A stretch of DNA of 64,000 bases from Bacilli bacterium (GTDB lineage Bacteria; Bacillota_I; Bacilli_A; ML615J-28; CAG-313), in assembly GCA_045589955.1 (NCBI GenBank), contig JAZNQD010000009.1:48294-112293 (forward strand), given 5' to 3'. The notes below the pieces were generated by a model. It searched no databases. It was not told the DNA's origin and worked only from the letters and a program-made list of their open reading frames with translations. Shown in pieces: positions 8,542 to 39,453 of the stretch. The stretch's first letter is position 1. Each line of letters begins with the position of its first letter. A program made the position numbers and the translations under genes.

Positions 8542-8883
8542 ATGTTTGGAACTAATGTTGATGAAGTTATATTGCGAAGTATAATGCTTAAATGGTTAAA
8601 TATGCGTGGACCAAGATACGGTACAGTAATTACTTCTGACACCACCGCAAAGGCAAGTTGTGTATATAATAAGAAATTAGAAAACGACTTACTTGAATTG
8701 CGTGAGTTATTTACTAATACTAATTTAATTATTACGTATAAAATATTGACATACGAAAAGACTAATGATAGGATTGTAATTGAATTTGAAGTACCAGAAA
8801 CAGCGAATAGGCCATTTATAGTAGGTATGTTACGATTATATAATAAATTAGATACAGATTTGCCTATAATGGGTGAATATTAA
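8542..8883 (+). CDS. hypothetical protein
   Basis: 113 aa ORF with AAGGAG RBS. Confidence 0.55.
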   Translation: MFGTNVDEVILRSIMLKWLNMRGPRYGTVITSDTTAKASCVYNKKLENDLLELRELFTNTNLIITYKILTYEKTNDRIVIEFEVPETANRPFIVGMLRLYNKLDTDLPIMGEY

Positions 8884-9410
8884 CGGTTATTGCTAAAGAA
8901 GAAGCGTTTAGCAAAATATAAAATTGAAATACATATTAGAGTAGCAGGAACAACTACATACTTAAAAAATTTATAGATAAAAGATGATATATTAGCTATA
9001 ACCCTATATATTTTCTTACTTATGGATATTATACGATCCTTTGTTGTTACCGGTTTAGGTTCCGATTCTTTATATAATTCATCTAAAATATCAGCATTTT
9101 CTTTTAATTTACGGTTTATTTCATCCATCTTTCTAATAAAGTCATCTAATTCTTCTTCAGTCGCATTTTTAAAGATGGATTCTAAGTCATCATTGTGTAA
9201 AGATTCATCATATTTTCTACGTGTTAAAGGATTAGTTAATGTAGAATATGCTTCATTTATCTTTTTAAATTTTTCAGTAGTTTTAGGATTAATATCAGGA
9301 TGGTACTTTTTAGCCAAAACTTTAAATGCAGCTTTAATTTCTTCTAAAGTTGCTGTTTGTTCAATACCAAGAATATCATAATGTGTTATTGTCATATTAA
9401 TCCCCTCCAT
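8880..9410 (-). CDS. J-domain (DnaJ-like) protein with C-terminal transmembrane segment
   Basis: N-terminal YDILGIEQTATLEEIKAAFKVLAKKYHPDINP with HPD motif; C-terminal hydrophobic helix. Confidence 0.7.
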   Translation of the reverse strand: MEGINMTITHYDILGIEQTATLEEIKAAFKVLAKKYHPDINPKTTEKFKKINEAYSTLTNPLTRRKYDESLHNDDLESIFKNATEEELDDFIRKMDEINRKLKENADILDELYKESEPKPVTTKDRIISISKKIYRVIANISSFIYKFFKYVVVPATLICISILYFAKRFFFSNNR

Positions 9411-10455: not shown

Positions 10456-11142
10456 TTATACTTCTGTATTTAAATTTTGTACTTTTTCTAATTCTTTAGC
10501 CGAATTAACTATCTTTTGTTGTGGATTATTACCTTCTATACCTTCATCATCTACCAAAAAGATTTTGTTTGTATTAAAATCTTTTACAAGTACAGTTTCT
10601 TGTTTGAATTCTTTACAAATTTCAATAGCAAATAACAATAGCATTTCACTAGGTACACCACCCAATTCAATAGATGTTGATTTATCATTATAAATTCTAT
10701 CACCAGATTGATATTTACCTCTAAAGTTATTCCCTACTGTTAAAGCTCCCAAGTACATATTTGGTTGTTCACCGAATTCTTTATTCCAAGTCTGTACCAA
10801 ATTGTTTACTTTTTTATCTTTAAAGACGTGATTCATTGTAGAATGATAAAGTTTCTTTAAAAATCCATACAATTTGTTTTTTTCAATATTATCAATCACT
10901 GTATTTACAGATAATGCAAATACGATCATACCACCACGATATTTTTCGAAACCATATTGCTCATCTGCGATTTTTTCATACAAAAAGGATTCTGTAAGCT
11001 TTTCTTGTCTAACAAAAGCCTTTTCATTTTCAGAGATTGCTTTTAGCATACCGGCATTGTAGTAGCAAACACCATTTGGGCGTCTGTCTTTTCCATCTGG
11101 TCTAAAATATTTAATTTCTTCTATTCGCATTTTGTACTCCAA
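10456..11142 (-). CDS. hypothetical protein (island gene 1)
   Basis: 228 aa ORF, no recognisable motif. Confidence 0.55.
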   Translation of the reverse strand: MEYKMRIEEIKYFRPDGKDRRPNGVCYYNAGMLKAISENEKAFVRQEKLTESFLYEKIADEQYGFEKYRGGMIVFALSVNTVIDNIEKNKLYGFLKKLYHSTMNHVFKDKKVNNLVQTWNKEFGEQPNMYLGALTVGNNFRGKYQSGDRIYNDKSTSIELGGVPSEMLLLFAIEICKEFKQETVLVKDFNTNKIFLVDDEGIEGNNPQQKIVNSAKELEKVQNLNTEV

Positions 11143-11696
11143 TCGTATTTACCTCTTTTCATTAACTCTCTTAAAAAATATCCATACATATGACGTGCAA
11201 AATTAGGTTTTTTGGTACCTGATAACTCATATTCTGTGTTTTCTGAGATTAATGAAAACTTATTGCCATGTATCTTGCTAAATCCATTCTTAATATCGTG
11301 TATAGAAAATTTAGATAATACTGGACTTGTAGGTTTGCCATATTTATTATACCATCTTGGTTCGTAATCAGCTGTTTTTAATAAGATACTCTCTTGTTTA
11401 TATTTACCACATAACCAAAGCATATCTTCAGCAAAAGTTTTTTTATTTCCGTTATTTATTACAAAAAAGGAAGCTTCTGTTACATCAACCTCATTTTCTT
11501 TTCCTTGGTTTTCTGTAAATCCACCTAAAATTGTAATATAACTATATCCTAAAGACCTAATATCAGTAACTAGTTCTTCTGTATACTTTTCGTTTTCTTT
11601 ATTAGAATTTTCATTACGACAAGCAGAAATAAAGCATATCTCATTGTCGTTGATATGCTGCAATACTCTACTTAATCTAGCTTCTAGCATTTCCAT
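11121..11696 (-). CDS. hypothetical protein (island gene 2)
   Basis: 191 aa ORF; promoter upstream. Confidence 0.55.
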   Translation of the reverse strand: MEMLEARLSRVLQHINDNEICFISACRNENSNKENEKYTEELVTDIRSLGYSYITILGGFTENQGKENEVDVTEASFFVINNGNKKTFAEDMLWLCGKYKQESILLKTADYEPRWYNKYGKPTSPVLSKFSIHDIKNGFSKIHGNKFSLISENTEYELSGTKKPNFARHMYGYFLRELMKRGKYDWSTKCE

Positions 11697-13175: not shown

Positions 13176-13436
13176 AATTCGTTATCTAAAGCCAAGCCAA
13201 CATACATTACTATATGGCTACCCTTTAGAACATGCAGTCTTTGTTTTGGTCTCGATAGCTCCCGTGCGCAGGGGATACAATTGGTTAGTTCACAAACCGC
13301 CTGAGACTCTGTGGCAATCTATTAAAAATTAATAGAATACTTTTTTAATCTACGAGTAGGATAAATAAGCCGGCACTCATCCTCTCTATCTGCATTCCAT
13401 CTAGCGTCTATACTTCCGCCATAACGAATTACTTAT

Positions 13437-14079: not shown

Positions 14080-15114
14080 TTAATATGTACTTAAATTATC
14101 AAAATATCCTTTAACATAAACAACCGGCGTTCCTTTATCACCACTACCAGATGTCAAATCCATTAAAGAACCTAATAAATCAGTTAATCTTCTTGGAGTA
14201 GTACCTTGTGAAACCATATTACCTACTAAATTTTTATCTTTTTCTTTGATACTTTGCTTAATAGTATTAGTTAAATCATCACCGCTTAAATCTTTATAAT
14301 CATTATCAGCTAAATATTTAAGTTTTAATTCGTTAGGTGTTCCTTTTAATCCATCTGTATAAGCAGGACTTACAACAGGATCAGCCAATTCCCAAATACC
14401 ACCAACAGGATCTTTAAAACAACCATCTCCATATACCATTACTTCAATTGTTTTTCCTGTTTTTTCATAAATTGTTTTTTGGATACAATCAATTAATTTT
14501 TTTGCAGAAGAATACGACGGAAATAATTTTAGCTTTTCTTCAGTCGCTTTATTACTTCCATATAGACCATATTCACATTTATCTGAACAAATATCTTTTA
14601 AGGTTATATCAAACGTATTTTTATGAATCTGACAATCTATAATCCCATTAACATTACATACCGATTCATTTTGGTATACAATATAACACTCTTTACCTTC
14701 TGCTTCAACAATTGATTTATAATATTCATCATAATTCAATCCGGTAAAAGGATGATTTTGTAATACATTACCAACTTCATCGACATTAGGCATTCTTATA
14801 TAAACAGTTCCAGTAACTGCTCGTGCAATACCTTTTAAAATCATTGCAAAACGATTACGCGAATAAATTGGATTAAATACTAAAATATCTTTTGGATTAT
14901 TGAATACTTTTTTAACAGATTCGGCAACTTCATCAACCGTAACATAATTACCTTCTGTTCTTGCAACAATAGATTCTGTAATACCTAAAACATCTTTATC
15001 ATCTATTTCTAACCCACTATTTAAAAGTGTATCTGAAACAATTTGAGCTAAATCATCACCTTCTTTGAAAATTGGACAAACTAATCCATATACAGATGTA
15101 CCTATTGTGCGCAT
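14080..15114 (-). CDS. CofE-like (F420-0:gamma-glutamyl ligase family) amide ligase homolog
   Basis: N-terminal [13 protein letters not shown]...[20 protein letters not shown] and C-terminal [12 protein letters not shown] resemble conserved CofE/FbiB blocks (GDDLAELI, SKAEGR, EGTPVV.VRG). Confidence 0.5.
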
Positions 15115-16147: not shown

Positions 16148-17701
16148 TTAATATACTATTTGCATATAACGCTCTTGGTTAATAACTTTCAAAGTTGCTT
16201 CTAAAGCATCATAATCTTCGCCTAATGCAATTTTCATAACAGAAGGTGAACAACCAGATAACAAAATATTATTCTTATCGTTAACCGTAATAGGAGTTTG
16301 ATTACTACGACTATCTACGTTCCACCATATTAACTTAGGTAAAGTATATCCAGCTTTTTCATATTTAGCCTTTATACCTTCATAATTAGTAAAACCAAAT
16401 GAGTATTCATCAAATTCCATATCTGAAATAATAATAAGTTGTTTTGGCATATCAGCATCTGGTACTTTTTCGGCAACAGCTCTTTTCAAAATTAAATCGA
16501 AAACACTTTGTAAATTAGTATTACTACAATCACCGGTAAAAACAGAACGAATTTTATCCAATAATGTATTACCTTTAACTATTTTCCACTGTGCGTTACA
16601 TGAAAAAGGAATTACATAGTTACGCCAAACCAAAGACTTATTTCTTTCTGCTATATAAATTGCTAAAGACAAAGATACAGCCATCGGTAAACCATTCATT
16701 GAACCAGATGTATCGCAAACAACCAAACCGTTTATTTCTGGTACATAATCCGGTAAAGCTTTCCATTGCGCCTCGACAGTAGGATTTATATTGATATGAG
16801 AGCCATAACCAATAAAATCATAAGCATCACTATAAACCCGAATTAAATCATACGGATATAATGTTTTAGCATTTATTTTAGCTTTACCTTCTTTTACCGC
16901 TTCTATATACGCATTATACTTATCAGAATCGTTTTTAAAGAAAGCTTTTCTGTATTTAAATGCAGCATAAGAAGGAAGATTTTCATAGTTAATTTTATCG
17001 TATTCTTTATTAACTAATTTTGTTTCAACTATATCCAAATCTTTACGTAATAAAACCAAAGCTCTTCTATAAGCTCCAATTGCACCAAACTTCCCAGATT
17101 TCAACAGTATATTTAACCACTTACGTTTTTCTGCATTTTTTACGCTTGTTCGTGGTAACCATTTAGCTAATAAAGAAATATCATATAATTCACCTTTAAA
17201 ATGATGTTGTAAATCTTTTTCTAATTGCATACCTATATAATCTATTACTTCATCTCGACAAGCAGTAAGTAATAGTGGCATATAATCATCATATCTACCA
17301 TATTCTGCAATTAAACCTAAATTTTTGCATATCCAATCTTTTTCGACATTACCTAAATATTCTAAGCAAATACGAAATACTTTACGTTCACCTTGTCCGC
17401 CTCTTACATCACGAATATAAAAAAGAGTACGTAAAGCCAAAGTTTTATCATAGTTAAATGCATTTACAAAAAGATTTAATATACGAGATTTATCAGTTTC
17501 TTTACGTAAAGCTGCACCATGAAAAAACCAATCAACAAGAGCGTTTTGTGTAGAAATATTAGTCAACGCCCCATTTTCAGTATAGGTTTTATTTGACATA
17601 GCATTAATAAACGCATTAGTAGAAGATTCACTTACTAATGGTATAGCTTTAAACTCAGAAATTTTTGCAGTATATCCTAATAAATCTGTATATGTTTTCA
17701 T
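16148..17701 (-). CDS. vWA-domain protein with MIDAS motif and N-terminal helical DUF2828/TROVE-like module
   Basis: LVVCDTSGSMNG (DxSxS MIDAS) about residue 330; N-terminal YIRDVRGGQGERKVF block reminiscent of DUF2828 proteins; promoter upstream. Confidence 0.5.
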   Translation of the reverse strand: MKTYTDLLGYTAKISEFKAIPLVSESSTNAFINAMSNKTYTENGALTNISTQNALVDWFFHGAALRKETDKSRILNLFVNAFNYDKTLALRTLFYIRDVRGGQGERKVFRICLEYLGNVEKDWICKNLGLIAEYGRYDDYMPLLLTACRDEVIDYIGMQLEKDLQHHFKGELYDISLLAKWLPRTSVKNAEKRKWLNILLKSGKFGAIGAYRRALVLLRKDLDIVETKLVNKEYDKINYENLPSYAAFKYRKAFFKNDSDKYNAYIEAVKEGKAKINAKTLYPYDLIRVYSDAYDFIGYGSHININPTVEAQWKALPDYVPEINGLVVCDTSGSMNGLPMAVSLSLAIYIAERNKSLVWRNYVIPFSCNAQWKIVKGNTLLDKIRSVFTGDCSNTNLQSVFDLILKRAVAEKVPDADMPKQLIIISDMEFDEYSFGFTNYEGIKAKYEKAGYTLPKLIWWNVDSRSNQTPITVNDKNNILLSGCSPSVMKIALGEDYDALEATLKVINQERYMQIVY

Positions 17702-18940: not shown

Positions 18941-19012
18941 AAAATGAAGTAAACTAACCGTTAGACTGAATAGACAGTAAAGGAGTCGAACCTTATTTAA
19001 TTACTTCATAAA
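18941..19012 (-). ncRNA. tRNA-sized degenerate tRNA-like remnant
   Basis: Exactly fills the gap between tRNA-Arg and tRNA-Asp; 9-bp terminal stem ATGAAGTAA/TTACTTCAT and internal AAGG-TTCGACT-CCTT T-arm-like hairpin but no canonical cloverleaf on either strand. Confidence 0.3.
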
Positions 19013-19015
19013 AAC

Positions 19016-19092
19016 TGGCGGGATTGATGGGGCTCGAACCCACGACCCTCTGCGTGACAGGCAGATATTCTAACCAGCTGAACTACAACCCC
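19016..19092 (-). tRNA. tRNA-Asp (GTC)
   Basis: Acceptor GGGGTTG/CAATCCC, anticodon loop CTGTCAC, T-loop TTCGAGC, CCA. Confidence 0.7.
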
Positions 19093-19229
19093 GTAAATGG
19101 TGGATAGGTGGGATTTTCACCCACATTTTTTAATTGACCGGTAAGTTTTACATTTCAAAAACACTCATAATGATTTATCTAGATAATTACTATTTTAATT
19201 TTTGTTTTTAAACTACTATCCTATAAAAA

Positions 19230-19314
19230 TGGCGGAGGGTGAGGGACTCGAACTCTCACAACCTTTCGGTCGGCGGTTTTCAAGACCGCTGCAATACCAT
19301 TATGCGAACCCTCC
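19230..19314 (-). tRNA. tRNA-Ser (TGA), type II
   Basis: Acceptor GGAGGGT/ACCCTCC, anticodon loop CTTGAAA, long variable arm, T-loop TTCGAGT, CCA. Confidence 0.7.
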
Positions 19315-19486
19315 AAAATAAAGGTGCTTTATCAGTACTCTTACGTAATAAAGCTTCGACTGCAGTTCAGGCATCCTTTCCACCTATATAGATGTAGTTC
19401 TATACCGACTCCCTATTTCAAACATTAGGGGCATGTACCAAACAAACTTATCTAGAATCAATGTTCGTTTGGATTTAAAGTACAGA

Positions 19487-19687
19487 TTATTTAAATACTA
19501 CTGGCATAACACTTAAATAATCCGTACTTTCTTTTTTCCAATCAAACTTTTTTATTTCTTTTTTCTTATTTTTAATTACTCTAGTACGTAATAAACCTTT
19601 TAACTGAGCCTCTATCAACATAAAATTTCGTCTTTTAGGCGCTTTAATTTTAAGCTTAAACTTATTTTTCATAATCTTGACCTTCAA
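19487..19687 (-). CDS. small highly basic hypothetical protein
   Basis: 66 aa, Lys/Arg rich; directly downstream of ACP gene. Confidence 0.4.
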   Translation of the reverse strand: MKVKIMKNKFKLKIKAPKRRNFMLIEAQLKGLLRTRVIKNKKKEIKKFDWKKESTDYLSVMPVVFK

Positions 19688-19938
19688 ATATGTTTTTCAA
19701 GATATTCAACTAAGTCCTTTACAGTTTCTATTTTTTCAGCATCATTATCTGCAATTTCTAAACCAAATTCTTCTTCAACGTACATAATTAATTCAACATG
19801 ATCTAAACTATCTAAATATAAATCATTATCAAAAGTATGTGTCATAAGAATTTCATTTCTATGCTTACCTGACACGTCTTCAATTAATTTTGCAACTTTA
19901 TTGAATATCTCTTTGTTTTCCATGACCATTTCTTTCAT
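19684..19938 (-). CDS. acpP: acyl carrier protein
   Basis: MKEMVMENKEIFNKVAKLIEDV...DNDLYLDSLDHVELIMYVEEEFGLEIADNDAEKIETVKDLVEYL carries the DSL phosphopantetheine-attachment motif and helix-II acidic patch. The ORF-track N-terminal extension 19939..20106 is spurious because it overlaps two tRNAs. Confidence 0.75.
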   Translation of the reverse strand: MKEMVMENKEIFNKVAKLIEDVSGKHRNEILMTHTFDNDLYLDSLDHVELIMYVEEEFGLEIADNDAEKIETVKDLVEYLEKHI

Positions 19939-19943
19939 ATAAT

Positions 19944-20019
19944 TGGAGCGAGTGAACGGGCTCGAACCGTCGACATCAACCTTGGCAAGGTTGCGCTCTA
20001 CCAACTGAGCTACACTCGC
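19944..20019 (-). tRNA. tRNA-Gly (GCC)
   Basis: Acceptor GCGAGTG/CACTCGC, D GCTC/GAGC, anticodon loop TTGCCAA, T-loop TTCGAGC, CCA. Confidence 0.75.
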
Positions 20020-20028
20020 AAAAAATGC

Positions 20029-20150
20029 GGGTAAGGGATAGATTCGAACTACCGACCAAGAGGTTACCAACCATGCAGATACAATTGCTGTGCCTATTTT
20101 TACCAAAATAGTTTATTTGCTTCTTGCTCTAACCGCTGAGCTACCTTACC
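20029..20150 (-). tRNA. anomalous 122-nt tRNA (candidate Thr, GGT) with about 50 nt of extra internal sequence; possible intron-containing gene or pseudogene
   Basis: Perfect acceptor GGTAAGG/CCTTACC, D-arm GCTC-AGCGGTTAGA-GC and T-arm GGTAG-TTCGAAT-CTATC, internal CTATT-TTGGTAA-AATAG anticodon-like hairpin, 3' end GCA instead of CCA. Confidence 0.4.
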
Positions 20151-20158
20151 CATAAGAA

Positions 20159-20398
20159 CTAACTTATTTCAATAGTTTTAAATAAAAATGTAATGGTAAT
20201 CTGAAATGTACGAATTATATCTTCATCTAAAACTTCTACAAATAACACTTTATCACCGTCTAATGCAACACTTTTCGAATACCATTCTGGATGTTTTTCT
20301 ACCCATTCTTGCGCTAATGACATGGGATGAAGATTTTGTTCACTCTCATAGTCTTCCCAGTCAATATCATTTTGTAATCGTATTTTACATTTTTGCAT
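20159..20398 (-). CDS. hypothetical protein
   Basis: 79 aa ORF. Confidence 0.45.
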   Translation of the reverse strand: MQKCKIRLQNDIDWEDYESEQNLHPMSLAQEWVEKHPEWYSKSVALDGDKVLFVEVLDEDIIRTFQITITFLFKTIEIS

Positions 20399-20420
20399 TT
20401 AACATCTTTCTTTTAAATTG

Positions 20421-20507
20421 TGGTGGGCTAGGCCGGAATCGAACCGGCACGGGATTGCTCCCAACAGATTTTAAGTCTGCAGCGTCTACCAGTTCCGCCA
20501 CAAGCCC
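20421..20507 (-). tRNA. tRNA-Leu (TAA), type II
   Basis: Anticodon loop CTTAAAA, long variable arm, T-arm GCCGG-TTCGATT-CCGGC, CCA. Confidence 0.7.
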
Positions 20508-20526
20508 ATATTAAGTAATAATTTCT

Positions 20527-20567
20527 TAAAAAAGAAGTGTCCTTTATTTTCAAGAACACTTACAATA
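20527..20567 (-). terminator. rho-independent terminator after small basic protein gene
   Basis: Hairpin AAGTGTTC...GGACACTT followed by CTTTTTTAAG on minus. Confidence 0.4.
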
Positions 20568-20603
20568 TGCATTAAAATTTTTAAATGTAAAACAAAAAAG
20601 TGA

Positions 20604-20789
20604 TTATTTTTTCTTTTTACTCGCTACTTGTAAAGTGACTTCTTTTTTAGCAGTGTTAGTATTACACGATGGAGCTTTACCAACTGTTGATTTTAATAAA
20701 TGAAAGCTTGGCATTAATTTCATTCTTTTTGCCCAGCGTTTAGCAAACATTATTTCTTCAACAGTTTTCTTTTTCTTTTCCATAGCCAT
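20604..20789 (-). CDS. small basic protein (61 aa)
   Basis: Start moved to ATG 20787-20789 (MAMEKKKK) with AGGAG RBS; the longer ORF-track start overlaps tRNA-Asn. Confidence 0.45.
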   Translation of the reverse strand: MAMEKKKKTVEEIMFAKRWAKRMKLMPSFHLLKSTVGKAPSCNTNTAKKEVTLQVASKKKK

Positions 20790-20815
20790 TATATCATACT
20801 CCTTTTTATAAAAAT

Positions 20816-20890
20816 TGGCTGGGATGGAGGGATTCGAACCCCCGACCAATCGGTTAACAGCTGATTGCACTGCCGCTGTGCTACATCCCA
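20816..20890 (-). tRNA. tRNA-Asn (GTT)
   Basis: Acceptor TGGGATG/CATCCCA, D GCAC/GTGC, anticodon loop CTGTTAA, T-loop TTCGAAT, CCA. Confidence 0.65.
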
Positions 20891-20902
20891 ATGATTAAAA
20901 GT

Positions 20903-20979
20903 TGGTTGGCCGAGCGAGACTTGAACTTGCGACCCCAGCTTTATCAGAGCTGTGCTCTAACCACCTGAGCTACCGACCA
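20903..20979 (-). tRNA. tRNA-Ile (GAT)
   Basis: Anticodon stem CAGCT/AGCTG with loop CTGATAA, T-loop TTCAAGT, CCA. Confidence 0.7.
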
Positions 20980-20984
20980 ATAAA

Positions 20985-21060
20985 TGGTGCCAGCAGAGAG
21001 ACTTGAACTCCCAACCTTCTCATTACAAGTGAGTTGCTCTACCAATTGAGCTATGCTGGC
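20985..21060 (-). tRNA. tRNA-Thr (TGT)
   Basis: Acceptor GCCAGCA/TGCTGGC, D GCTC/GAGC, anticodon loop CTTGTAA, T-loop TTCAAGT, CCA. Confidence 0.7.
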
Positions 21061-21077
21061 AATGTATAATATAAGAA

Positions 21078-21596
21078 CTATTCTCTCGAATTATTTTTAG
21101 AAACAAATTTCTGTTTTTTATTCTTTTTGGAATTTTTCATATATTTATTTCTAATTTCTTGTATTTTCTGCTTCTTTTGTTGAAGTAACATATTCTCATA
21201 TCGTTTACGTATTTCTTTAGCACTTTTATCAGCTTCCTTGTTATAATAAGAAAGGACAGTACCGTCTTGGCAATGTCCCTTAATCCACATAACATGGCAA
21301 TTCAAAGCTTCTAATCGTTCTAAAATGTTATCGAGAATTATTTTTTCATTTGGTCGATATGAGCCATTTCTAATTGCGTGAATTGCGTATGAAGAATCCG
21401 TTAACAAGGTAATATGTTCTTTAGTATCTTTTATACTAACAAGAGCAAATAAAATAGCGCGTAATTCAGCAGTATTATTATCAGATTCTTCTACAACCGC
21501 AGCATCTCTAAAAATTTCTCTGTTTCTAGCGTCTGTAATAACAAATGCTATACCCGAATTATTTTTACGTGTGCTTGCGTCGGTATATATTTTCAC
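21078..21596 (-). CDS. rnhA: ribonuclease H (RNase HI-like)
   Basis: DASTRKNNSGIAFVI...AELRAILFAL...LLTDSSYAI...MWIKGHCQDGT...NKEADKSAKE matches D-E-D-H-D RNase H catalytic layout. Confidence 0.6.
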   Translation of the reverse strand: MKIYTDASTRKNNSGIAFVITDARNREIFRDAAVVEESDNNTAELRAILFALVSIKDTKEHITLLTDSSYAIHAIRNGSYRPNEKIILDNILERLEALNCHVMWIKGHCQDGTVLSYYNKEADKSAKEIRKRYENMLLQQKKQKIQEIRNKYMKNSKKNKKQKFVSKNNSRE

Positions 21597-23119: not shown

Positions 23120-23274
23120 TTTATAATTCCTGAATCATAGCACGTTCCTTTATGAATATGAGTTACGGTTTTTGGTTCAACCTCTGCTACACATTTCGTT
23201 ATACTTATTACACATACACAAATAATTATTGCACGTAAAACAGAATTTAAACAATATACCAAAACTTTTTTCAT
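23116..23274 (-). CDS. small Cys-rich hydrophobic peptide (52 aa)
   Basis: Hand-translated MKKVLVYCLNSVLRAIIICVCVISITKCVAEVEPKTVTHIHKGTCYDSGIIK; ATGA overlaps at both ends (coupled to guaC-like and mazG-like genes). Confidence 0.35.
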   Translation of the reverse strand: MKKVLVYCLNSVLRAIIICVCVISITKCVAEVEPKTVTHIHKGTCYDSGIIK

Positions 23275-24449
23275 AAAATACCCTTTCCATCATTATTTAA
23301 AATGCGGCGAACTTTATAAAATGTTGTTACTTTTGGAAAATCTTTTAGTTTTGTACAATTTATATAAGTCATGGTACTTCTTAATGATCCTAAATAGTCA
23401 TCAATAATATTTTGTACTGGACCAACGTATTCTTTTAATGTAACAATACCTTCTGATGTTCTGTAGTTAGCCATACCATTCCAATGTTTATCTTGGGCAT
23501 ATTTAGATGACATTCCATAGGCAAGTTTGAATTTTTTAGCTTCATATTTTGGTTTATCGGGGACATAAATTTCATCAATTAATGTAAATCCATCAACAAC
23601 TCTTTCTTCTGTTTCTATATAATAATCATATTCATTAGTGCGGTATACTTTTTCAATAATATCACCTTCAGCTTCATCAGTTCCAGCAACTAAAGAACCA
23701 ACCATTACAAAATCGGCACCTGCTCCATACGCCTTTGCAATATCACCATAGCAAGTAATTCCACCATCAGCACAGATATATCCACCCACCGCATGAGCAG
23801 CTTCTGCACAATCTAGTACGGTAGATAATTGTGGACGTCCAACTCCTGTTTGTTTTCTTGTCGTACAATTAGCACCCGGTCCAATCCCACACTTAACTAA
23901 GTCTGCTCCGGCTAATATTAAATCTTGGACCATATCTCCGGTTACAACATTACCAACCATTATAACGATATCTGGATACTCTTTTCTAAATAAACTTACT
24001 GCTTCTAAAAGCTTTGGAATATATCCATTAGCAATATCAATACATAAATTTTTACAAAGACCTGTATCTAAAATACGTTTTGTCTTATTTACGTCTTCAG
24101 TATTTATGCCAGTTGATAAAAAGATATAATCGTTTCCACAAATATGTCCATCAAAAGTTTTGGCAGAAAGATTATTTTCAGTAAAAAATTCATAAAGGCT
24201 GTCAAAAGAATAATGCTTTTGTAAACAACAGAACATTTTATTATATTGAAAAACTTTAGCCATTTCAAATGTACCTGTAGTTGCCATATTAGCTACAGTT
24301 AATCCATTTCCTTCTATTGTTCTATTTGACCATTTAAACGTATACTTTCTATATACATTAGGCTCTTTTCTTGAATTTAAAGTAGAGCGTTTAGGTTTAA
24401 TCAATACATCGCAATAATCTAGCTGTTCTTCGTTTATAACCTGTGTCAT
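23271..24449 (-). CDS. guaC: GMP reductase (GuaC-type, IMPDH/GMPR family)
   Basis: DVLIKPKRSTLNSR...TFKWS...ANMATTGTFEMA ... GADLVKCGIGPGANCTTRKQTGVGRPQLSTVLDCAEAAHAVGGYICADGGI...GADFVMVGS aligns block by block with bacterial GuaC. Confidence 0.7.
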   Translation of the reverse strand: MTQVINEEQLDYCDVLIKPKRSTLNSRKEPNVYRKYTFKWSNRTIEGNGLTVANMATTGTFEMAKVFQYNKMFCCLQKHYSFDSLYEFFTENNLSAKTFDGHICGNDYIFLSTGINTEDVNKTKRILDTGLCKNLCIDIANGYIPKLLEAVSLFRKEYPDIVIMVGNVVTGDMVQDLILAGADLVKCGIGPGANCTTRKQTGVGRPQLSTVLDCAEAAHAVGGYICADGGITCYGDIAKAYGAGADFVMVGSLVAGTDEAEGDIIEKVYRTNEYDYYIETEERVVDGFTLIDEIYVPDKPKYEAKKFKLAYGMSSKYAQDKHWNGMANYRTSEGIVTLKEYVGPVQNIIDDYLGSLRSTMTYINCTKLKDFPKVTTFYKVRRILNNDGKGIL

Positions 24450-37491: not shown

Positions 37492-39453
37492 ATGGCTAAC
37501 TATAAATTTCCGGGCGTATACGCTTCTATTAGAGATTTAAGTGGAGTTGTTGCAACTAATAGTACAACAGCTTGCGCATTCGTTGGTGAAGCGGAGTATG
37601 GTCCAGTAAACACTCCAGTTTTATTATCTACATTACAAGATTATACAGATCGTTTTGGTTCACTTAGCTCAAAATACGGTTACGCCGGATATTCATTAGC
37701 CGTTGCTGCTGATACTATCAACGAACACTATTTTGTACGTGTTGTTCCAATGGGTGATCCAGAAACTCCAGTTGAAGAACGTGTAAATGATGCTCACTGG
37801 GCAGCAGCTTTTGTACCAGTTACAGGTAATACAAAAGAGCTTCCTGCTTCTAAAGGTTATTTCTACGAAGAAGTTAAAGCTGCTCAAACTTCTCGTGATG
37901 CAGGTGCTGCTTCTGGTTTATTTGCTAAAGATGATGTAGATTCTGCGTTCTTAGTAATGGCAAATGATCCAAACAATCGTAAATTTTACATTTCATTAGC
38001 AGACAGTACAATTAACGAAAACCGTGCATATTCAGTATTAGCACCAACTAGATTTGAACACGAGTCTGGTGATTCAGAAAGAACATTTGTTACTGTAACA
38101 GTTCCAGCCAGTGTTGTTGATGGTATCGAAGAAGGTTCAGCAATCGTAGTTTCTCGTATGTCAAACGATGTTCTCAACGGTACATTCAAAGTATATGATT
38201 GGGCATTAGATGGTCAAACTGCTACAATTACTTATATCGTTAATGAATTAGTAGATGAAACAAATGATGCAAATGCACGTGTAGGTCGTTATCCAGATAA
38301 TAATCAAACAACTTTTACCGTAAACGTAATGGAAAAAGTTGGTCGTGTAATGCAAACTCTTGAAACATTTGAATATTGTACATTATATCCAAGCCAAGAT
38401 AACTATGGTAATTCAATGTTCATCGAAGACGTAATTAACGGCTCTTCAAATTACATTCAAGTATTTGTAAATAACAATTTCACAGATGAAGATCCAGATG
38501 CAGTAGTTATTCCAGCATTTGTTGAAAACTTACCTTTAACAGGTGGTAAATCTGGTAACTGGACAGATATGAATCAAAAATACACTGACTTAAATGCAGC
38601 ATGGGAAAACTTCCGTGACCGTTCTCAAGTTGGCGTATCATTGTTGATGAACAGTGGTTATGTAACAAAAGAAAATGTTTCATACCAAGCAAAAATGTTA
38701 GAAATCGCTGAACATCGTCGTGACTGCTTCTGCTTGTTCGATTCTCCAATGACAGAAACTGATTACGAAGATTTGATTGACTGGAGAAAAAATATTCAGG
38801 GCTTTAACTCATATCGTGGCGCAGTATCTGCACCTTGGGTTAAAACATATGATTCTGTTCAAGGTCGTGCAAACTTTGTAATGTGTCCATCAGCTTATGT
38901 TGCTAAAATCATGGGTAATGGTCAACCTTGGGTTGCTCCTGCTGGTTTAAATCGTGGTGTTCTTACATCAGCAACTGTTTCACCTACAGGTTTAACACAA
39001 TACTATGACCAAACAAAAGGCGGTAACATTTACGCTGATAATCAAGTTAACTGCATTATCAAAGATCCAAGTTCTGGTTATGTAAACTGGGGTCAAAGAA
39101 CATTACAAGCTAAACCTTCTGCATTAGACAGAATTAATGTAGCAAGAACAGTTATTTATATCGAAACTGTATTACGTGATGCAGCTAAATGGCACTTATT
39201 CGAAAACAATACAGCTTACGAACGTATGCAAATTACCTTACAATTCACAAGTTTCTTAAATTCAATTTTAAGTGCTGAAGGTATTCAAAAGTTCCAAGTT
39301 GTATGTAATGAAACAAATAATACTCCTTTAGTAATTGCCAACAATCAATTGGTAGTAGATATTTATTTGTGGCCAACATATACTGCAGAAGTTATCATTC
39401 TTAACACAACAGTTATGGGTGCAGACACTACAGTTACCGTTACAACTGCTTAA
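37492..39453 (+). CDS. tail sheath protein
   Basis: N-terminal YKFPGVYASIRDLSGVV...ACAFVGEAEYGPVNTPVLLSTLQDYTDRFGSL matches contractile tail sheath N-terminal consensus (PGVY..E...afvG...GP.n.P.l..s...f...FG); 653 aa; GTTCTAAT motifs upstream, terminator downstream. Confidence 0.75.
   Translation: MANYKFPGVYASIRDLSGVVATNSTTACAFVGEAEYGPVNTPVLLSTLQDYTDRFGSLSSKYGYAGYSLAVAADTINEHYFVRVVPMGDPETPVEERVNDAHWAAAFVPVTGNTKELPASKGYFYEEVKAAQTSRDAGAASGLFAKDDVDSAFLVMANDPNNRKFYISLADSTINENRAYSVLAPTRFEHESGDSERTFVTVTVPASVVDGIEEGSAIVVSRMSNDVLNGTFKVYDWALDGQTATITYIVNELVDETNDANARVGRYPDNNQTTFTVNVMEKVGRVMQTLETFEYCTLYPSQDNYGNSMFIEDVINGSSNYIQVFVNNNFTDEDPDAVVIPAFVENLPLTGGKSGNWTDMNQKYTDLNAAWENFRDRSQVGVSLLMNSGYVTKENVSYQAKMLEIAEHRRDCFCLFDSPMTETDYEDLIDWRKNIQGFNSYRGAVSAPWVKTYDSVQGRANFVMCPSAYVAKIMGNGQPWVAPAGLNRGVLTSATVSPTGLTQYYDQTKGGNIYADNQVNCIIKDPSSGYVNWGQRTLQAKPSALDRINVARTVIYIETVLRDAAKWHLFENNTAYERMQITLQFTSFLNSILSAEGIQKFQVVCNETNNTPLVIANNQLVVDIYLWPTYTAEVIILNTTVMGADTTVTVTTA

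What the first reader, a model, noticed from the sequence alone, without database searches (positions are those of the whole stretch)
20029..20150. 122-nt tRNA gene (candidate Thr-GGT) with about 50 nt of internal extra sequence and no encoded CCA
The acceptor, D-arm and T-arm are perfect, and an internal hairpin CTATT-TTGGTAA-AATAG looks like a Thr(GGT) anticodon arm. However, 14 nt separate it from the D-arm and about 40 nt separate it from the T-arm. Every canonical tRNA in the arrays encodes CCA, while this one ends GCA. Possibilities are a tRNA with a small intron or insertion element, a tRNA-derived regulatory RNA, or an integration-site remnant (tRNA 3' halves are common attB sites).
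Basis: seen in the sequence. Interest (0 to 1): 0.5.

Follow-up and report, generated by a model that had tools for sequence, protein, structure and literature searches.

The report
Interrupted tRNA paired with Ro60-like protein
A phage gene that looks like a threonine tRNA split by a 49-base insert belongs to a widespread family of tRNA-shaped RNAs, not found in Rfam or the searchable papers, that sit beside a Ro60-like RNA-binding protein, so it is most likely the RNA half of a viral Ro/Y-RNA-type particle, not a broken or ordinary tRNA.

Summary
On the minus strand, 20029-20151 encodes a tRNA-shaped RNA with perfect acceptor, D and T arms and no CCA, while all 20 canonical tRNAs in the window encode CCA. 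The true anticodon loop is a second UUGGUAA at 20064-20070.

Removing 49 nt (20073-20121) between tRNA positions 29 and 30 restores a perfect tRNA-Thr(GGU) anticodon stem. The same holds in five diverged related phages, with compensatory changes.

The insert (hairpin, 2 nt, ACAGCAAY, AU-rich tail) is not BHB, group I or any Rfam family. It recurs at positions 28/29 or 29/30 in tRNA genes of many isotypes, in more than 200 viral and metagenomic contigs.

In 78 of 108 such loci a DUF2828/DUF7788 gene lies nearby, always on the same strand and usually just downstream. The window's copy (16148-17701) models confidently, and its best structural matches are Ro60.

Related loci also carry the same stem-plus-ACAGCAA module in free-standing small RNAs and in one circularly permuted YrlA-like RNA, neither of which could be spliced.

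Best reading (about 0.55): a tRNA-bodied, Y-RNA-like partner of a phage Ro60-like protein. Main rival (about 0.28): a true intron that is excised.

The parts
20029..20151 (-). Whole tRNA-shaped RNA gene (123 nt with the 8-bp acceptor). The discriminator-like G is at 20028, followed by CA and U6.
   Evidence: Rfam tRNA CM gives 44 bits at 20029-20150. An acceptor/D/T-arm scan finds it as the only long tRNA-shaped gene in the window.
20144..20151 (-). Acceptor stem, 5' strand GGGUAAGG. It pairs with 20029-20036 (CCUUACCC), and the eighth pair is G(-1):C73.
   Evidence: All 8 pairs are kept in 6 lineages. Seven of them show compensatory changes, and the extra pair is GC x5 and AU x1.
20126..20141 (-). 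D arm, GCUC-AGCGGUUA-GAGC.
20122..20124 (-). tRNA positions 27-29 (AGA), the first part of the split 5' strand of the anticodon stem.
   Evidence: Removing 20073-20121 gives AGAGG/CCUCU. This is the only solution, at position 29/30.
20073..20121 (-). 49-nt insert (module): leader AGCAAAUAAA, hairpin, GC, ACAGCAAU, tail UGUAUCUGCAU.
   Evidence: A covariance model built from 35 independent family members matches 20059-20130(-) at 35.2 bits, E 1e-5.
20094..20111 (-). Module hairpin CUAUUUU-GGUA-AAAAUAG (7 bp).
   Evidence: Folding. The hairpin covaries across the family, with compensatory changes at all 6 modelled pairs. The L022 variant changes a U-A pair to U-G.
20084..20091 (-). Conserved single-stranded motif ACAGCAAU, 2 nt after the hairpin.
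   Evidence: A motif logo was built. CAGC[AU] was found in 39 of 57 interrupted Thr genes from a scan that did not require it. It is the only ACAGCAAY in the window with an adjoining stem.
20059..20072 (-). Rest of the anticodon stem-loop: GG (positions 30-31), loop UUGGUAA (anticodon GGU at 20066-20068), CCUCU (positions 39-43).
20037..20058 (-). Variable loop UGGUC (20054-20058) and T arm GGUAG-UUCGAAU-CUAUC (20037-20053).
16148..17701 (-). Ro60-like protein gene (517 aa; Pfam DUF2828 + DUF7788), the proposed protein partner. It is on the same strand, 2.4 kb downstream of the RNA gene.
   Evidence: Pfam. The AF2 model has pLDDT 90 and pTM 0.88. Top Foldseek PDB hits are Ro60 structures 1yvr, 2i91, 9kop, 9l5y and 9nen, aligned over the full length. 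The MIDAS residues D330/S332/S334 are invariant. The family co-occurs with the module.

Best explanation
The gene encodes a complete tRNA-Thr(GGU) body whose anticodon stem carries a 49-nt add-on between positions 29 and 30. The add-on is a 7-bp hairpin, 2 nt, then the conserved single strand ACAGCAAU.

This add-on is the signature of an RNA family not found in Rfam or the searchable literature that is encoded beside a phage Ro60-like protein (DUF2828/DUF7788; here 16148-17701). The RNA is therefore most likely the tRNA-shaped RNA component of a viral Ro60/Y-RNA-type ribonucleoprotein.

Proposed working:
1. The RNA is transcribed with the minus-strand tRNA array.
2. Its ends are cut like a tRNA, because the acceptor and T arms are intact.
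3. The hairpin-plus-ACAGCAA module projects from the anticodon stem and is bound by the Ro60-like ring.
4. The tRNA body serves as the effector or bait domain, as the tRNA-like domain of YrlA does. It could recruit a host tRNA-binding factor such as PNPase or a tRNA-targeting enzyme.

Shown: the anatomy, the covariation, family membership, gene linkage and the Ro60 fold.
Inferred: protein-RNA binding, end processing and the downstream function.
Left open: whether the module is ever excised.
For: 1. Structure under selection. There are 0 non-pairs in 132 helix cells across 6 lineages, with many compensatory changes. The hairpin also covaries.

2. Family membership. The same module sits at position 28/29 or 29/30 in interrupted tRNA genes in metagenomes and in more than 120 IMG/VR viral contigs, across many isotypes. 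An independent CM scores the window at 35.2 bits, E 1e-5.

3. Linkage. The DUF2828 family is by far the commonest neighbour, present in 78 of 108 loci. It is on the same strand in 78 of 78, the RNA is upstream in 70 of 78, and the median start-to-start distance is 527 nt. Among loci fetched by DNA pattern alone, 67 of 101 have it, against about 0 in control loci. It occurs even where there is no tRNA array.

4. The protein has the Ro60 fold.

5. The module also occurs where splicing is impossible.
- Free-standing 55-80-nt RNAs have the stem formed by their own termini (L025 1907-1962, L019 928-983, L024 589-639, L027 4986-5041, L028 about 13196-13252).
- L001 6616-6759 is a permuted YrlA-like RNA next to a DUF2828 gene. 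It has AAGAUACGU-ACAGCAA at its 5' end, ACGUAUCUU at its 3' end and a closed acceptor.
- Of 126 DUF2828 loci, 102 carry the hairpin-type module on the sense strand (5 on the antisense control), 96 carry the terminal-stem type (34 on the antisense control), and 76 carry both.

6. The gene differs from real tRNAs beside it. In 14 loci where most canonical tRNAs encode CCA (at least 80% per locus), 0 of 16 interrupted genes have a full CCA. In the window ARAGORN's coordinates show CCA on all 20 canonical tRNAs and none on the element.

7. Precedent. Y RNAs are tRNA mimics encoded next to Ro60 in bacteria and phages (PMC4201824). Thermus phage phiLo Ro60 binds two Y-like RNAs encoded upstream of its gene and engages host PNPase (PMC12135203).
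Against: - No binding or expression data exist.
- In the window the protein gene is 2.4 kb away, with an ACP gene and five tRNAs between, not adjacent.
- The RNA keeps features that a pure scaffold would not need. These are a canonical 7-nt anticodon loop with U33 and A37, a split stem that closes perfectly when the insert is removed, and in the wider family a position 37 that fits the isotype (G37 in Pro and Leu-UAG loops).
- In some large arrays the interrupted gene is the only copy of its anticodon in the fetched stretch. The anticodon was absent from the normal tRNAs in 17 of 32 cases.
- The Rfam YrlA model does not recognise it. The 24-bit hit is an artefact spanning the next tRNA.
- The known Ro-binding GNCGAA motif is absent.
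- The window copy deviates from the family consensus at the 5' junction (GA|AG versus CG|UA) and has a longer tail without a U tract.
Confidence: 0.55

Rival explanations
1. It is a genuine tRNA intron of a new, non-group-I, non-BHB kind. The 49 nt are cut out and the exons joined to give a decoding tRNA-Thr(GGU). The Ro60-like protein would act as a cofactor, chaperone or regulator of that maturation, or would handle the excised RNA.
For: - Removing the insert restores a perfect 5-bp stem with a UUGGUAA loop in all six lineages and in most family members, across many different stem sequences.
- ARAGORN calls tRNA-Thr(ggt) after in-silico excision, and in intron mode on the precursor.
- Anticodon loops are canonical and position 37 fits the isotype.
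- In 17 of 32 cases no normal tRNA with that anticodon lies in the same partial locus. Example: L287 has 26 tRNAs and no other Pro.
- Phage tRNA introns of unknown mechanism have been reported (Lak megaphages, PMC6784885).
- In cells, Ro60 genes sit in RNA-repair operons with the RtcB ligase (PMC7790460).
Against: - No bacterial or phage machinery is known for such an intron.
- There is no BHB. The central helix has 3 of 4 pairs and the flanking helices are absent (definition from PMC4090602, checked on the sequence).
- No ribozyme or intron family matches in Rfam.
- Leader-tail pairing is no better than in controls.
- The same module occurs in free-standing and permuted RNAs that cannot be spliced into tRNAs.
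- Interrupted genes lack the CCA that neighbouring real tRNAs encode.
- The acceptor helix has an extra conserved pair.
- No ligase or nuclease family co-occurs in the loci.
Confidence: 0.28
2. It is a cis-acting leader or processing element of the Ro60-like gene. The protein would bind the module in its own transcript to autoregulate, and the tRNA shape would only provide an RNase P cleavage point.
For: The RNA is on the same strand in 78 of 78 loci and upstream in 70 of 78, usually within a few hundred nt.
Against: - In the window, an ACP gene, another ORF and five tRNAs lie between the RNA and the protein gene.
- In 8 of 78 loci the RNA lies downstream of the gene, as in L200 and L206.
- Many loci carry two or three module RNAs.
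- Complete tRNA bodies with conserved anticodon loops are more than a cleavage signal needs.
Confidence: 0.07
3. It is a dead tRNA gene: a pseudogene disrupted by a small insertion, an integration-site (attB) remnant, or an artefact of mis-set boundaries.
For: Default tRNA finders skip it. It has no CCA. Its 5' junction departs from the family consensus.
Against: - All helices are maintained by compensatory substitutions across lineages that share only 57-80% protein identity in neighbouring genes.
- The insert is itself conserved in structure and motif.
- No canonical 76-nt tRNA can be carved out of the region.
- There is no repeat of a tRNA 3' half.
Confidence: 0.03

Closest known systems
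Bacterial and phage Y RNAs of the YrlA type with Ro60/Rsr (Rfam RF02553; Chen et al. 2014, PMC4201824)
   Same: - The RNA is encoded on the same strand next to a protein with the Ro60 ring plus vWA fold.
- The RNA is tRNA-derived, with authentic T and D arms.
- A conserved stem plus single-stranded motif serves as the presumed protein-binding site.
- Many loci also carry a second, smaller stem-loop RNA, like YrlB or Yrl2.
- A permuted relative (L001) is weakly recognised by the YrlA model (31.6 bits).
   Different: - Here the tRNA order is not permuted: the termini lie in the acceptor stem and the module is a closed hairpin.
- A complete anticodon stem-loop is retained.
- The motif is ACAGCAAY, not GNCGAA.
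- The protein belongs to Pfam DUF2828/DUF7788, not TROVE.
- The YrlA model fails on it (24 bits against a gathering score of 69, and that hit is an artefact).
Thermus phage phiLo Ro60 with Yrl1/Yrl2 (PMC12135203; PDB 9kop, 9l5y)
   Same: A phage Ro60 homologue with small RNAs encoded beside its gene. The phiLo structures are among the top structural matches of the window protein.
   Different: The phiLo RNAs are classical stem-bulge-stem Y RNAs with a CGAA motif, not full tRNAs. Sequence identity of the proteins is only about 13-14%.
Archaeal non-canonical tRNA introns (bulge-helix-bulge), which also occur at position 29/30 (PMC4090602)
   Same: A short insert in the 5' strand of the anticodon stem whose removal restores a canonical tRNA. 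The size range is similar.
   Different: There is no BHB motif. The context is a phage whose relatives carry an outer-membrane-protein gene (L025), which suggests a bacterial host, though the host is unproven. The internal motif and hairpin are conserved. The insert is linked to a Ro60-like gene.
'Enigmatic' introns of Lak megaphage tRNAs (Devoto et al. 2019, PMC6784885)
   Same: Phage tRNA genes with inserts that are not detectably group I and are missed by bacterial tRNA finders.
   Different: The one Lak insert read here (tRNA-Tyr, Table S6) is 93 nt, lies in the anticodon loop at about 37/38 and contains tRNA-like sequence. ACAGCAA does not occur in the table of Lak introns.
Group I introns in bacterial and phage tRNA anticodon loops
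   Same: They interrupt tRNA genes. Relatives of this phage carry a 230-730-nt insert, with an HNH ORF in three of four, in the anticodon loop of tRNA-Leu(UAA).
   Different: The element here is 49 nt, lies in the stem and not the loop, and has no catalytic core. Rfam reports nothing for it.

Membership tests
tRNA (Rfam RF00005) | Cloverleaf with acceptor, D and T arms scoring above the gathering threshold | tested here: met
   44 bits against a gathering score of 29 at 20029-20150(-) when the element is searched alone. It is missed in the larger scans.
tRNA (Rfam RF00005) | Contiguous 5-bp anticodon stem with a 7-nt loop | tested here: not met
   The stem is split by 49 nt between positions 29 and 30. 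ARAGORN in default mode makes no call and calls it only in intron mode.
tRNA (Rfam RF00005) | 3' CCA end and aminoacylation | not testable with these tools
   CCA is not encoded (it reads G-C-A), unlike all 20 neighbouring tRNAs. Post-transcriptional addition and charging cannot be assessed here.
Y RNA / YrlA (RF02553) | Encoded near, and on the same strand as, a Ro60-fold protein gene | tested here: met
   In the window the distance is 2.4 kb, same strand. Across the family it is 78 of 108 loci, 78 of 78 on the same strand, median 527 nt. The Ro60 fold is shown.
Y RNA / YrlA (RF02553) | tRNA-like domain with T and D arms | tested here: met
Y RNA / YrlA (RF02553) | Match to the YrlA covariance model at or above the gathering score (69 bits) | tested here: not met
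   24.4 bits at 19971-20081. That hit joins the element's T arm to the D arm of the next tRNA-Gly, so it is an artefact.
Y RNA / YrlA (RF02553) | Termini paired in the protein-binding stem, acceptor closed by a loop (permuted order), GNCGAA motif | tested here: not met
   The window RNA has tRNA order with open acceptor termini and no GNCGAA. The permuted form exists in L001.
Y RNA / YrlA (RF02553) | Physical binding to the Ro60 protein | not testable with these tools
   This needs EMSA, RIP or a structure of the complex.
Module-bearing tRNA family defined here (hairpin + NN + ACAGCAAY in the anticodon stem) | Significant match to a covariance model built from independent members | tested here: met
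   Model R1, built from 35 sequences that exclude this phage clade, matches window 20059-20130(-) at 35.2 bits, E 1e-5, over the full model length.
Module-bearing tRNA family defined here (hairpin + NN + ACAGCAAY in the anticodon stem) | Insert at position 28/29 or 29/30, 40-56 nt long, with CAGC ending 8-15 nt before the 3' junction | tested here: met
   The window insert is at 29/30, is 49 nt long, and has 14 nt after CAGC.
Module-bearing tRNA family defined here (hairpin + NN + ACAGCAAY in the anticodon stem) | Consensus 5' junction CG|UA | tested here: not met
   The window has GA|AG. The consensus holds in 30 of 52 members.
Archaeal/eukaryal BHB tRNA intron | 4-bp central helix flanked by two 3-nt bulges carrying the splice sites, with outer helices | tested here: not met
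   Checked by hand on the sequence against the definition in PMC4090602. The central helix GCAA/CUGC has 3 of 4 pairs and neither outer helix forms. Relatives do no better.
Group I intron in tRNA | Catalytic core (at least about 200 nt) inserted in the anticodon loop | tested here: not met
   The insert is 49 nt and lies in the stem. No Rfam intron or ribozyme family matches at E <= 10.
Ro60/TROVE proteins (for ORF 16148-17701) | HEAT-repeat ring plus C-terminal vWA domain with a MIDAS motif | tested here: met
   The AF2 model has pLDDT 90. The top five Foldseek PDB hits are Ro60 structures aligned over the full length (1yvr: E 8.5e-8, TM 0.57). The DxSxS residues D330/S332/S334 are invariant in 44 homologues.
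Ro60/TROVE proteins (for ORF 16148-17701) | Sequence match to Pfam TROVE or to solved Ro60 sequences | tested here: not met
   Pfam reports only DUF2828 + DUF7788. A phmmer search against PDB sequences finds nothing relevant. The relationship is visible only at the fold level.

The most novel reading that the evidence does not exclude
The insert is a true intron, and the Ro60-like protein marks or chaperones it for excision and re-ligation. That would be a third, protein-guided tRNA-splicing pathway operating in bacteriophages. It would let a phage switch particular tRNAs on (for example Thr, Lys, Asn, Pro or Arg species) or shield them from host anticodon nucleases until they are spliced.
Probability: 0.12. 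Interest if true: 0.9.

Novelty: new variant of a known kind. Interest (0 to 1): 0.7.

Why it matters
- It would give a function and an RNA partner to a very large protein family of unknown function. DUF2828/DUF7788 returned the search's maximum of 8,000 scored hits, all significant.
- It would extend the Ro60/Y-RNA paradigm to jumbo and gut phages with a new RNA architecture: a whole, non-permuted tRNA with an authentic anticodon loop that carries the binding module as a side branch.
- It explains a class of "over-long" tRNA genes that standard annotation misses or would label pseudogenes or intron-containing.
- It makes two questions directly testable. What do tRNA-mimicking Y RNAs recruit? 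Do phages use tRNA-bodied RNPs against host tRNA-targeting defences or RNA decay?
- If the insert proved to be excised instead, it would reveal an unknown tRNA-splicing route in bacteria.

Tried and rejected
- Phage GenBank collection (blastn). Only the neighbouring tRNA-Gly matched, with no close relative.
- An exact insert string and a first Thr-specific pattern in IMG/VR gave 0 hits.
- YrlA membership of the window element. The 24-bit hit spans into tRNA-Gly and is an artefact.
- The complementarity of UUGGUAA to the tRNA-Gly anticodon loop was treated as coincidence, because relatives have no tRNA-Gly at that position.
- BHB intron. Rejected on the sequence against the published definition.
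- Small ribozymes and group I introns. No Rfam match. Rfam also did not confirm group I for the tRNA-Leu inserts in relatives.
- A closing helix between insert leader and tail. It is no better than mismatched leader-tail controls: mean 3.94 versus 3.81, and 165 of 1000 controls reach the observed value.
- The idea that ACAGCAA is a duplicate of tRNA positions 21-27. It holds only in some members.
- Enrichment of an extra -1:73 pair across the whole family. It is not above the rate in normal tRNAs of the same loci (68% versus 60%). It is conserved and covarying only within the window's own clade.
- A possible pseudoknot between UUGK hairpin loops and the GCAA/ACAG of the motif. Noted but not tested.
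- Lak megaphage introns. Different in size, position and content.
- A free-standing module RNA in the window. None was found in the 64 kb.
- Redundancy of the interrupted anticodon with normal tRNAs. The result is mixed, 15 of 32, and does not discriminate.
- Full-text literature searches found no description of this insert family.

Full report
**1. What is in the sequence**

The element lies on the minus strand inside an array of 20 minus-strand tRNA genes. Read 5'->3' it is:

GGGUAAGG UA GCUC-AGCGGUUA-GAGC A AGA [AGCAAAUAAA CUAUUUU-GGUA-AAAAUAG GC ACAGCAAU UGUAUCUGCAU] GG UUGGUAA CCUCU UGGUC GGUAG-UUCGAAU-CUAUC CCUUACCC G CA UUUUUU

- ARAGORN in default mode skips it. The Rfam scans of 19000-21500 and of the whole window skip it too.
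- Searched alone, the Rfam tRNA model scores it at 44 bits at exactly 20029-20150, with a 60-nt insertion in the anticodon arm.
- All 20 canonical tRNAs encode CCA. This gene does not.
- A second UUGGUAA at 20064-20070 is the true anticodon loop. Deleting 49 nt (20073-20121) joins AGA to GG and gives a perfect AGAGG/CCUCU stem. This is the only solution, at tRNA position 29/30.
- ARAGORN then calls tRNA-Thr(ggt), and in intron mode it calls the precursor with a 49-nt intron.

**2. Orthologues show selection, not decay**

The flanking 79-aa ORF has four homologues in public assemblies. Their contigs, and contigs carrying 57-64% relatives of the DUF2828 protein, each contain exactly one such long tRNA-shaped gene.

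Across six lineages (window, L018, L024, L025, L027, L028) all 22 helix positions pair in every sequence. Compensatory double changes occur at:
- 7 of 8 acceptor pairs, including an extra -1:73 pair,
- 4 of 5 pairs of the split anticodon stem,
- 5 of 5 T-stem pairs.

The insert hairpin also covaries. This excludes a pseudogene, an att remnant and a boundary error.

**3. The insert is a family**

- A structural DNA pattern found many interrupted tRNA-Thr genes in metagenomes. A few more occur in MAG contigs that look like phage.
In these the same insert sits at 28/29 or 29/30 in tRNA bodies of many isotypes: Thr, Asn, Lys, Arg, Pro, Gln, Val, Ile, Gly, Asp, His and a GCU species.
- Consensus anatomy is 40-56 nt. 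The 5' junction is mostly CG|UA. A 6-9-bp hairpin is followed by two nt, then (A/U)CAGCAA(U/C), then an AU-rich tail of 8-15 nt.
- A covariance model built from 35 members outside the window's clade hits the window element at 35.2 bits (E 1e-5). It hits each relative at 42-54 bits, once per locus.

What the insert is not:
- It is not a BHB intron (definition in PMC4090602; checked on the sequence).
- It is not group I or any Rfam family.
- It has no supported closing helix.
- Lak megaphage tRNA introns, the only phage tRNA introns found in the literature searches, differ in size, position and content.

**4. The decisive context**

I clustered all ORFs from 112 loci that carry such a gene. One family dominates: DUF2828 + DUF7788, the family of window ORF 16148-17701.

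- It is present in 78 of 108 loci and on the same strand as the RNA in 78 of 78.
- The RNA is upstream in 70 of 78, with a median start-to-start distance of 527 nt.
- Most loci without it are truncated on the downstream side.
- For loci fetched purely by DNA pattern the rate is 67 of 101. In control loci it is essentially zero.
- The pairing is also seen where there is no tRNA array.

An AlphaFold model of the window protein (44-sequence alignment; pLDDT 90, pTM 0.88) has Ro60 structures as its five best PDB matches, aligned over the full length. These include the Ro60 of Thermus phage phiLo. The next matches are vWA/MIDAS domains. The MIDAS DxSxS residues are invariant. Sequence methods do not see this relationship.

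**5. The module exists outside interrupted tRNAs**

- L001 is the one IMG/VR relative of the protein. Its DUF2828 gene follows a tRNA array that contains a circularly permuted tRNA-like RNA, scored by Rfam YrlA at 31.6 bits.
- The 5' end of that RNA reads AAGAUACGU-ACAGCAA and its 3' end reads ACGUAUCUU. Together they form a 9-bp terminal stem followed by the motif, while the acceptor is closed by a loop. It is the same module with the hairpin opened.
- Related phages also carry free-standing RNAs of 55-80 nt, made of a terminal stem, NN, ACAGCAA and an inner hairpin.
- Across 126 DUF2828 loci, 102 have the hairpin-type module on the sense strand (5 on the antisense control). The terminal-stem type is in 96 (34 on the antisense control), and 76 loci have both.
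- None of these RNAs could be spliced into a tRNA. The module therefore has a function of its own. That matches Ro60 loci, which encode a tRNA-like Y RNA plus a smaller one (PMC4201824, PMC12135203).

**6. Interpretation**

The best-supported reading is that the window gene is a tRNA-Thr(GGU)-bodied, Y-RNA-like partner of a phage Ro60-like protein, with the hairpin-ACAGCAA module as the protein-binding site.

Further support comes from CCA. In 14 loci where most normal tRNAs encode CCA (at least 80% per locus), none of 16 interrupted genes has a full CCA.

The main rival is that the insert is a real intron and the mature product is a decoding tRNA. It keeps real weight:
- Excision restores a flawless anticodon arm everywhere.
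- Anticodon loops are canonical and position 37 fits the isotype.
- In 17 of 32 cases the interrupted anticodon is not otherwise present in the fetched part of the array.

The two readings are not mutually exclusive. A cis-regulatory leader and a dead gene are much less likely.

**7. Comparison and novelty**

It works like Ro60/Y-RNA systems and shares their genomic logic, but it fails the YrlA membership tests. The order is non-permuted, the motif is different, the protein belongs to a different Pfam family, and the model score is sub-threshold. I therefore rate it a new variant of a known kind. Within the searchable literature I found no description of this RNA family or of DUF2828 as a Ro60-like protein with an RNA partner. 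The jumbo-phage survey PMC7824862 notes only that some phages encode a ROT/TROVE protein.

**8. Limits**

- Everything about binding, processing, possible excision and biological role is inferred.
- The collection scans were capped, and the ACAGCAAY scan biases the motif logo.
- Loci are partial.
- The window copy is an atypical member (5' junction GA|AG, long tail, 2.4 kb from the protein gene).

Noticed in passing
window 20421-20507 versus L023 534-1331, L018 1573-2370, L019 3483-4280, L022 518-835: The window's tRNA-Leu(UAA) is intact. In four close relatives the same gene is split in the anticodon loop (after ...CAGACUUAA) by an insert of about 230 nt (L022) or about 710-730 nt. The longer inserts carry an HNH endonuclease ORF. 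This is the classic site for a group I intron, but Rfam at gathering threshold reported none.
   Followed up: partly
L001 6616-6759 and 7260-7315 (IMGVR_UViG_3300021400_000027): A circularly permuted tRNA-like RNA (Rfam YrlA 31.6 bits, below threshold) carries the same stem + ACAGCAA module next to a DUF2828 gene. A second tRNA-like element there lacks an acceptor stem (tRNA model positions 8-63, 36.6 bits).
   Followed up: partly
L025 1907-1962; L019 928-983; L024 589-639; L027 4986-5041; L028 about 13196-13252: Free-standing small RNAs of 55-80 nt (terminal 6-9-bp stem, NN, ACAGCAA, inner hairpin) occur in relatives of the window phage, often right after a tRNA. Some in other loci (L250, L234) contain a T-arm. 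No such RNA was found in the 64-kb window.
   Followed up: partly
L033, L034, L038, L039, L044, L053, L064, L069, L086, L097, L103, L118, L132, L140, L154 (Methanophagales MAG), L170, L184: A second, GC-rich class of interrupted tRNA-Thr genes has a 48-57-nt insert at about the same position (28/29). The insert is a long hairpin followed by a ...GGUUA(C/U)(U/C)... 3' tail. tblastn found no DUF2828 gene in these loci. At least one comes from an archaeal bin. The mechanism was not examined.
   Followed up: no
L002-L017 (IMG/VR): Sixteen viral contigs carry other tRNA-shaped genes with intact acceptor, D and T arms and 27-70 nt of extra sequence in the anticodon loop or arm. Some resolve to loop introns (L002, L006, L013, L017) and others do not resolve to any canonical tRNA. 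Only L015 has the ACAGC module and a DUF2828 gene.
   Followed up: no
window 19971-20081 (-): The weak Rfam YrlA hit (24.4 bits) joins the element's T arm to the D arm of the next tRNA-Gly. The element's UUGGUAA loops are complementary to the tRNA-Gly(GCC) anticodon loop UUGCCAA. I judged this coincidental because the tRNA-Gly is absent at this position in the 80% relatives.
   Followed up: yes
window 19684-20106 (-): The listed 140-aa TTG-start ORF runs through tRNA-Gly and the element. It is a spurious extension of a real 84-aa acyl carrier protein gene (19684-19938, PP-binding domain).
   Followed up: yes
window 14080-15114, 23271-24449, 11121-11696, 21078-21596, 8880-9410 (all -): Auxiliary genes are interleaved with the tRNA arrays: an F420-0:gamma-glutamyl ligase-like gene, a GMP reductase/IMPDH-family gene, an S-adenosylmethionine lyase, RNase H and a DnaJ-domain protein. 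Relatives reach 234-254 kb (jumbo phages) and have a tail-sheath gene (window 37492-39453).
   Followed up: no
L201, L205, L217, L219-L221, L231, L236, L239, L243, L257, L284, L292 (IMG/VR): A group of module-bearing tRNAs has the loop AUGCUAA (anticodon GCU, nominally Ser) but only a short variable loop. It lacks the long arm of bacterial tRNA-Ser, so its amino-acid identity is unclear.
   Followed up: no
Module hairpin loops across the family (e.g. window 20100-20106, L032, L135, L202, L283): Hairpin loops are often (C/U)UUG(U/G)..., which resembles Thr or other anticodon loops. Such a loop could pair with the GCAA or ACAG of the downstream motif to form a pseudoknot. This was not tested statistically.
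   Followed up: no
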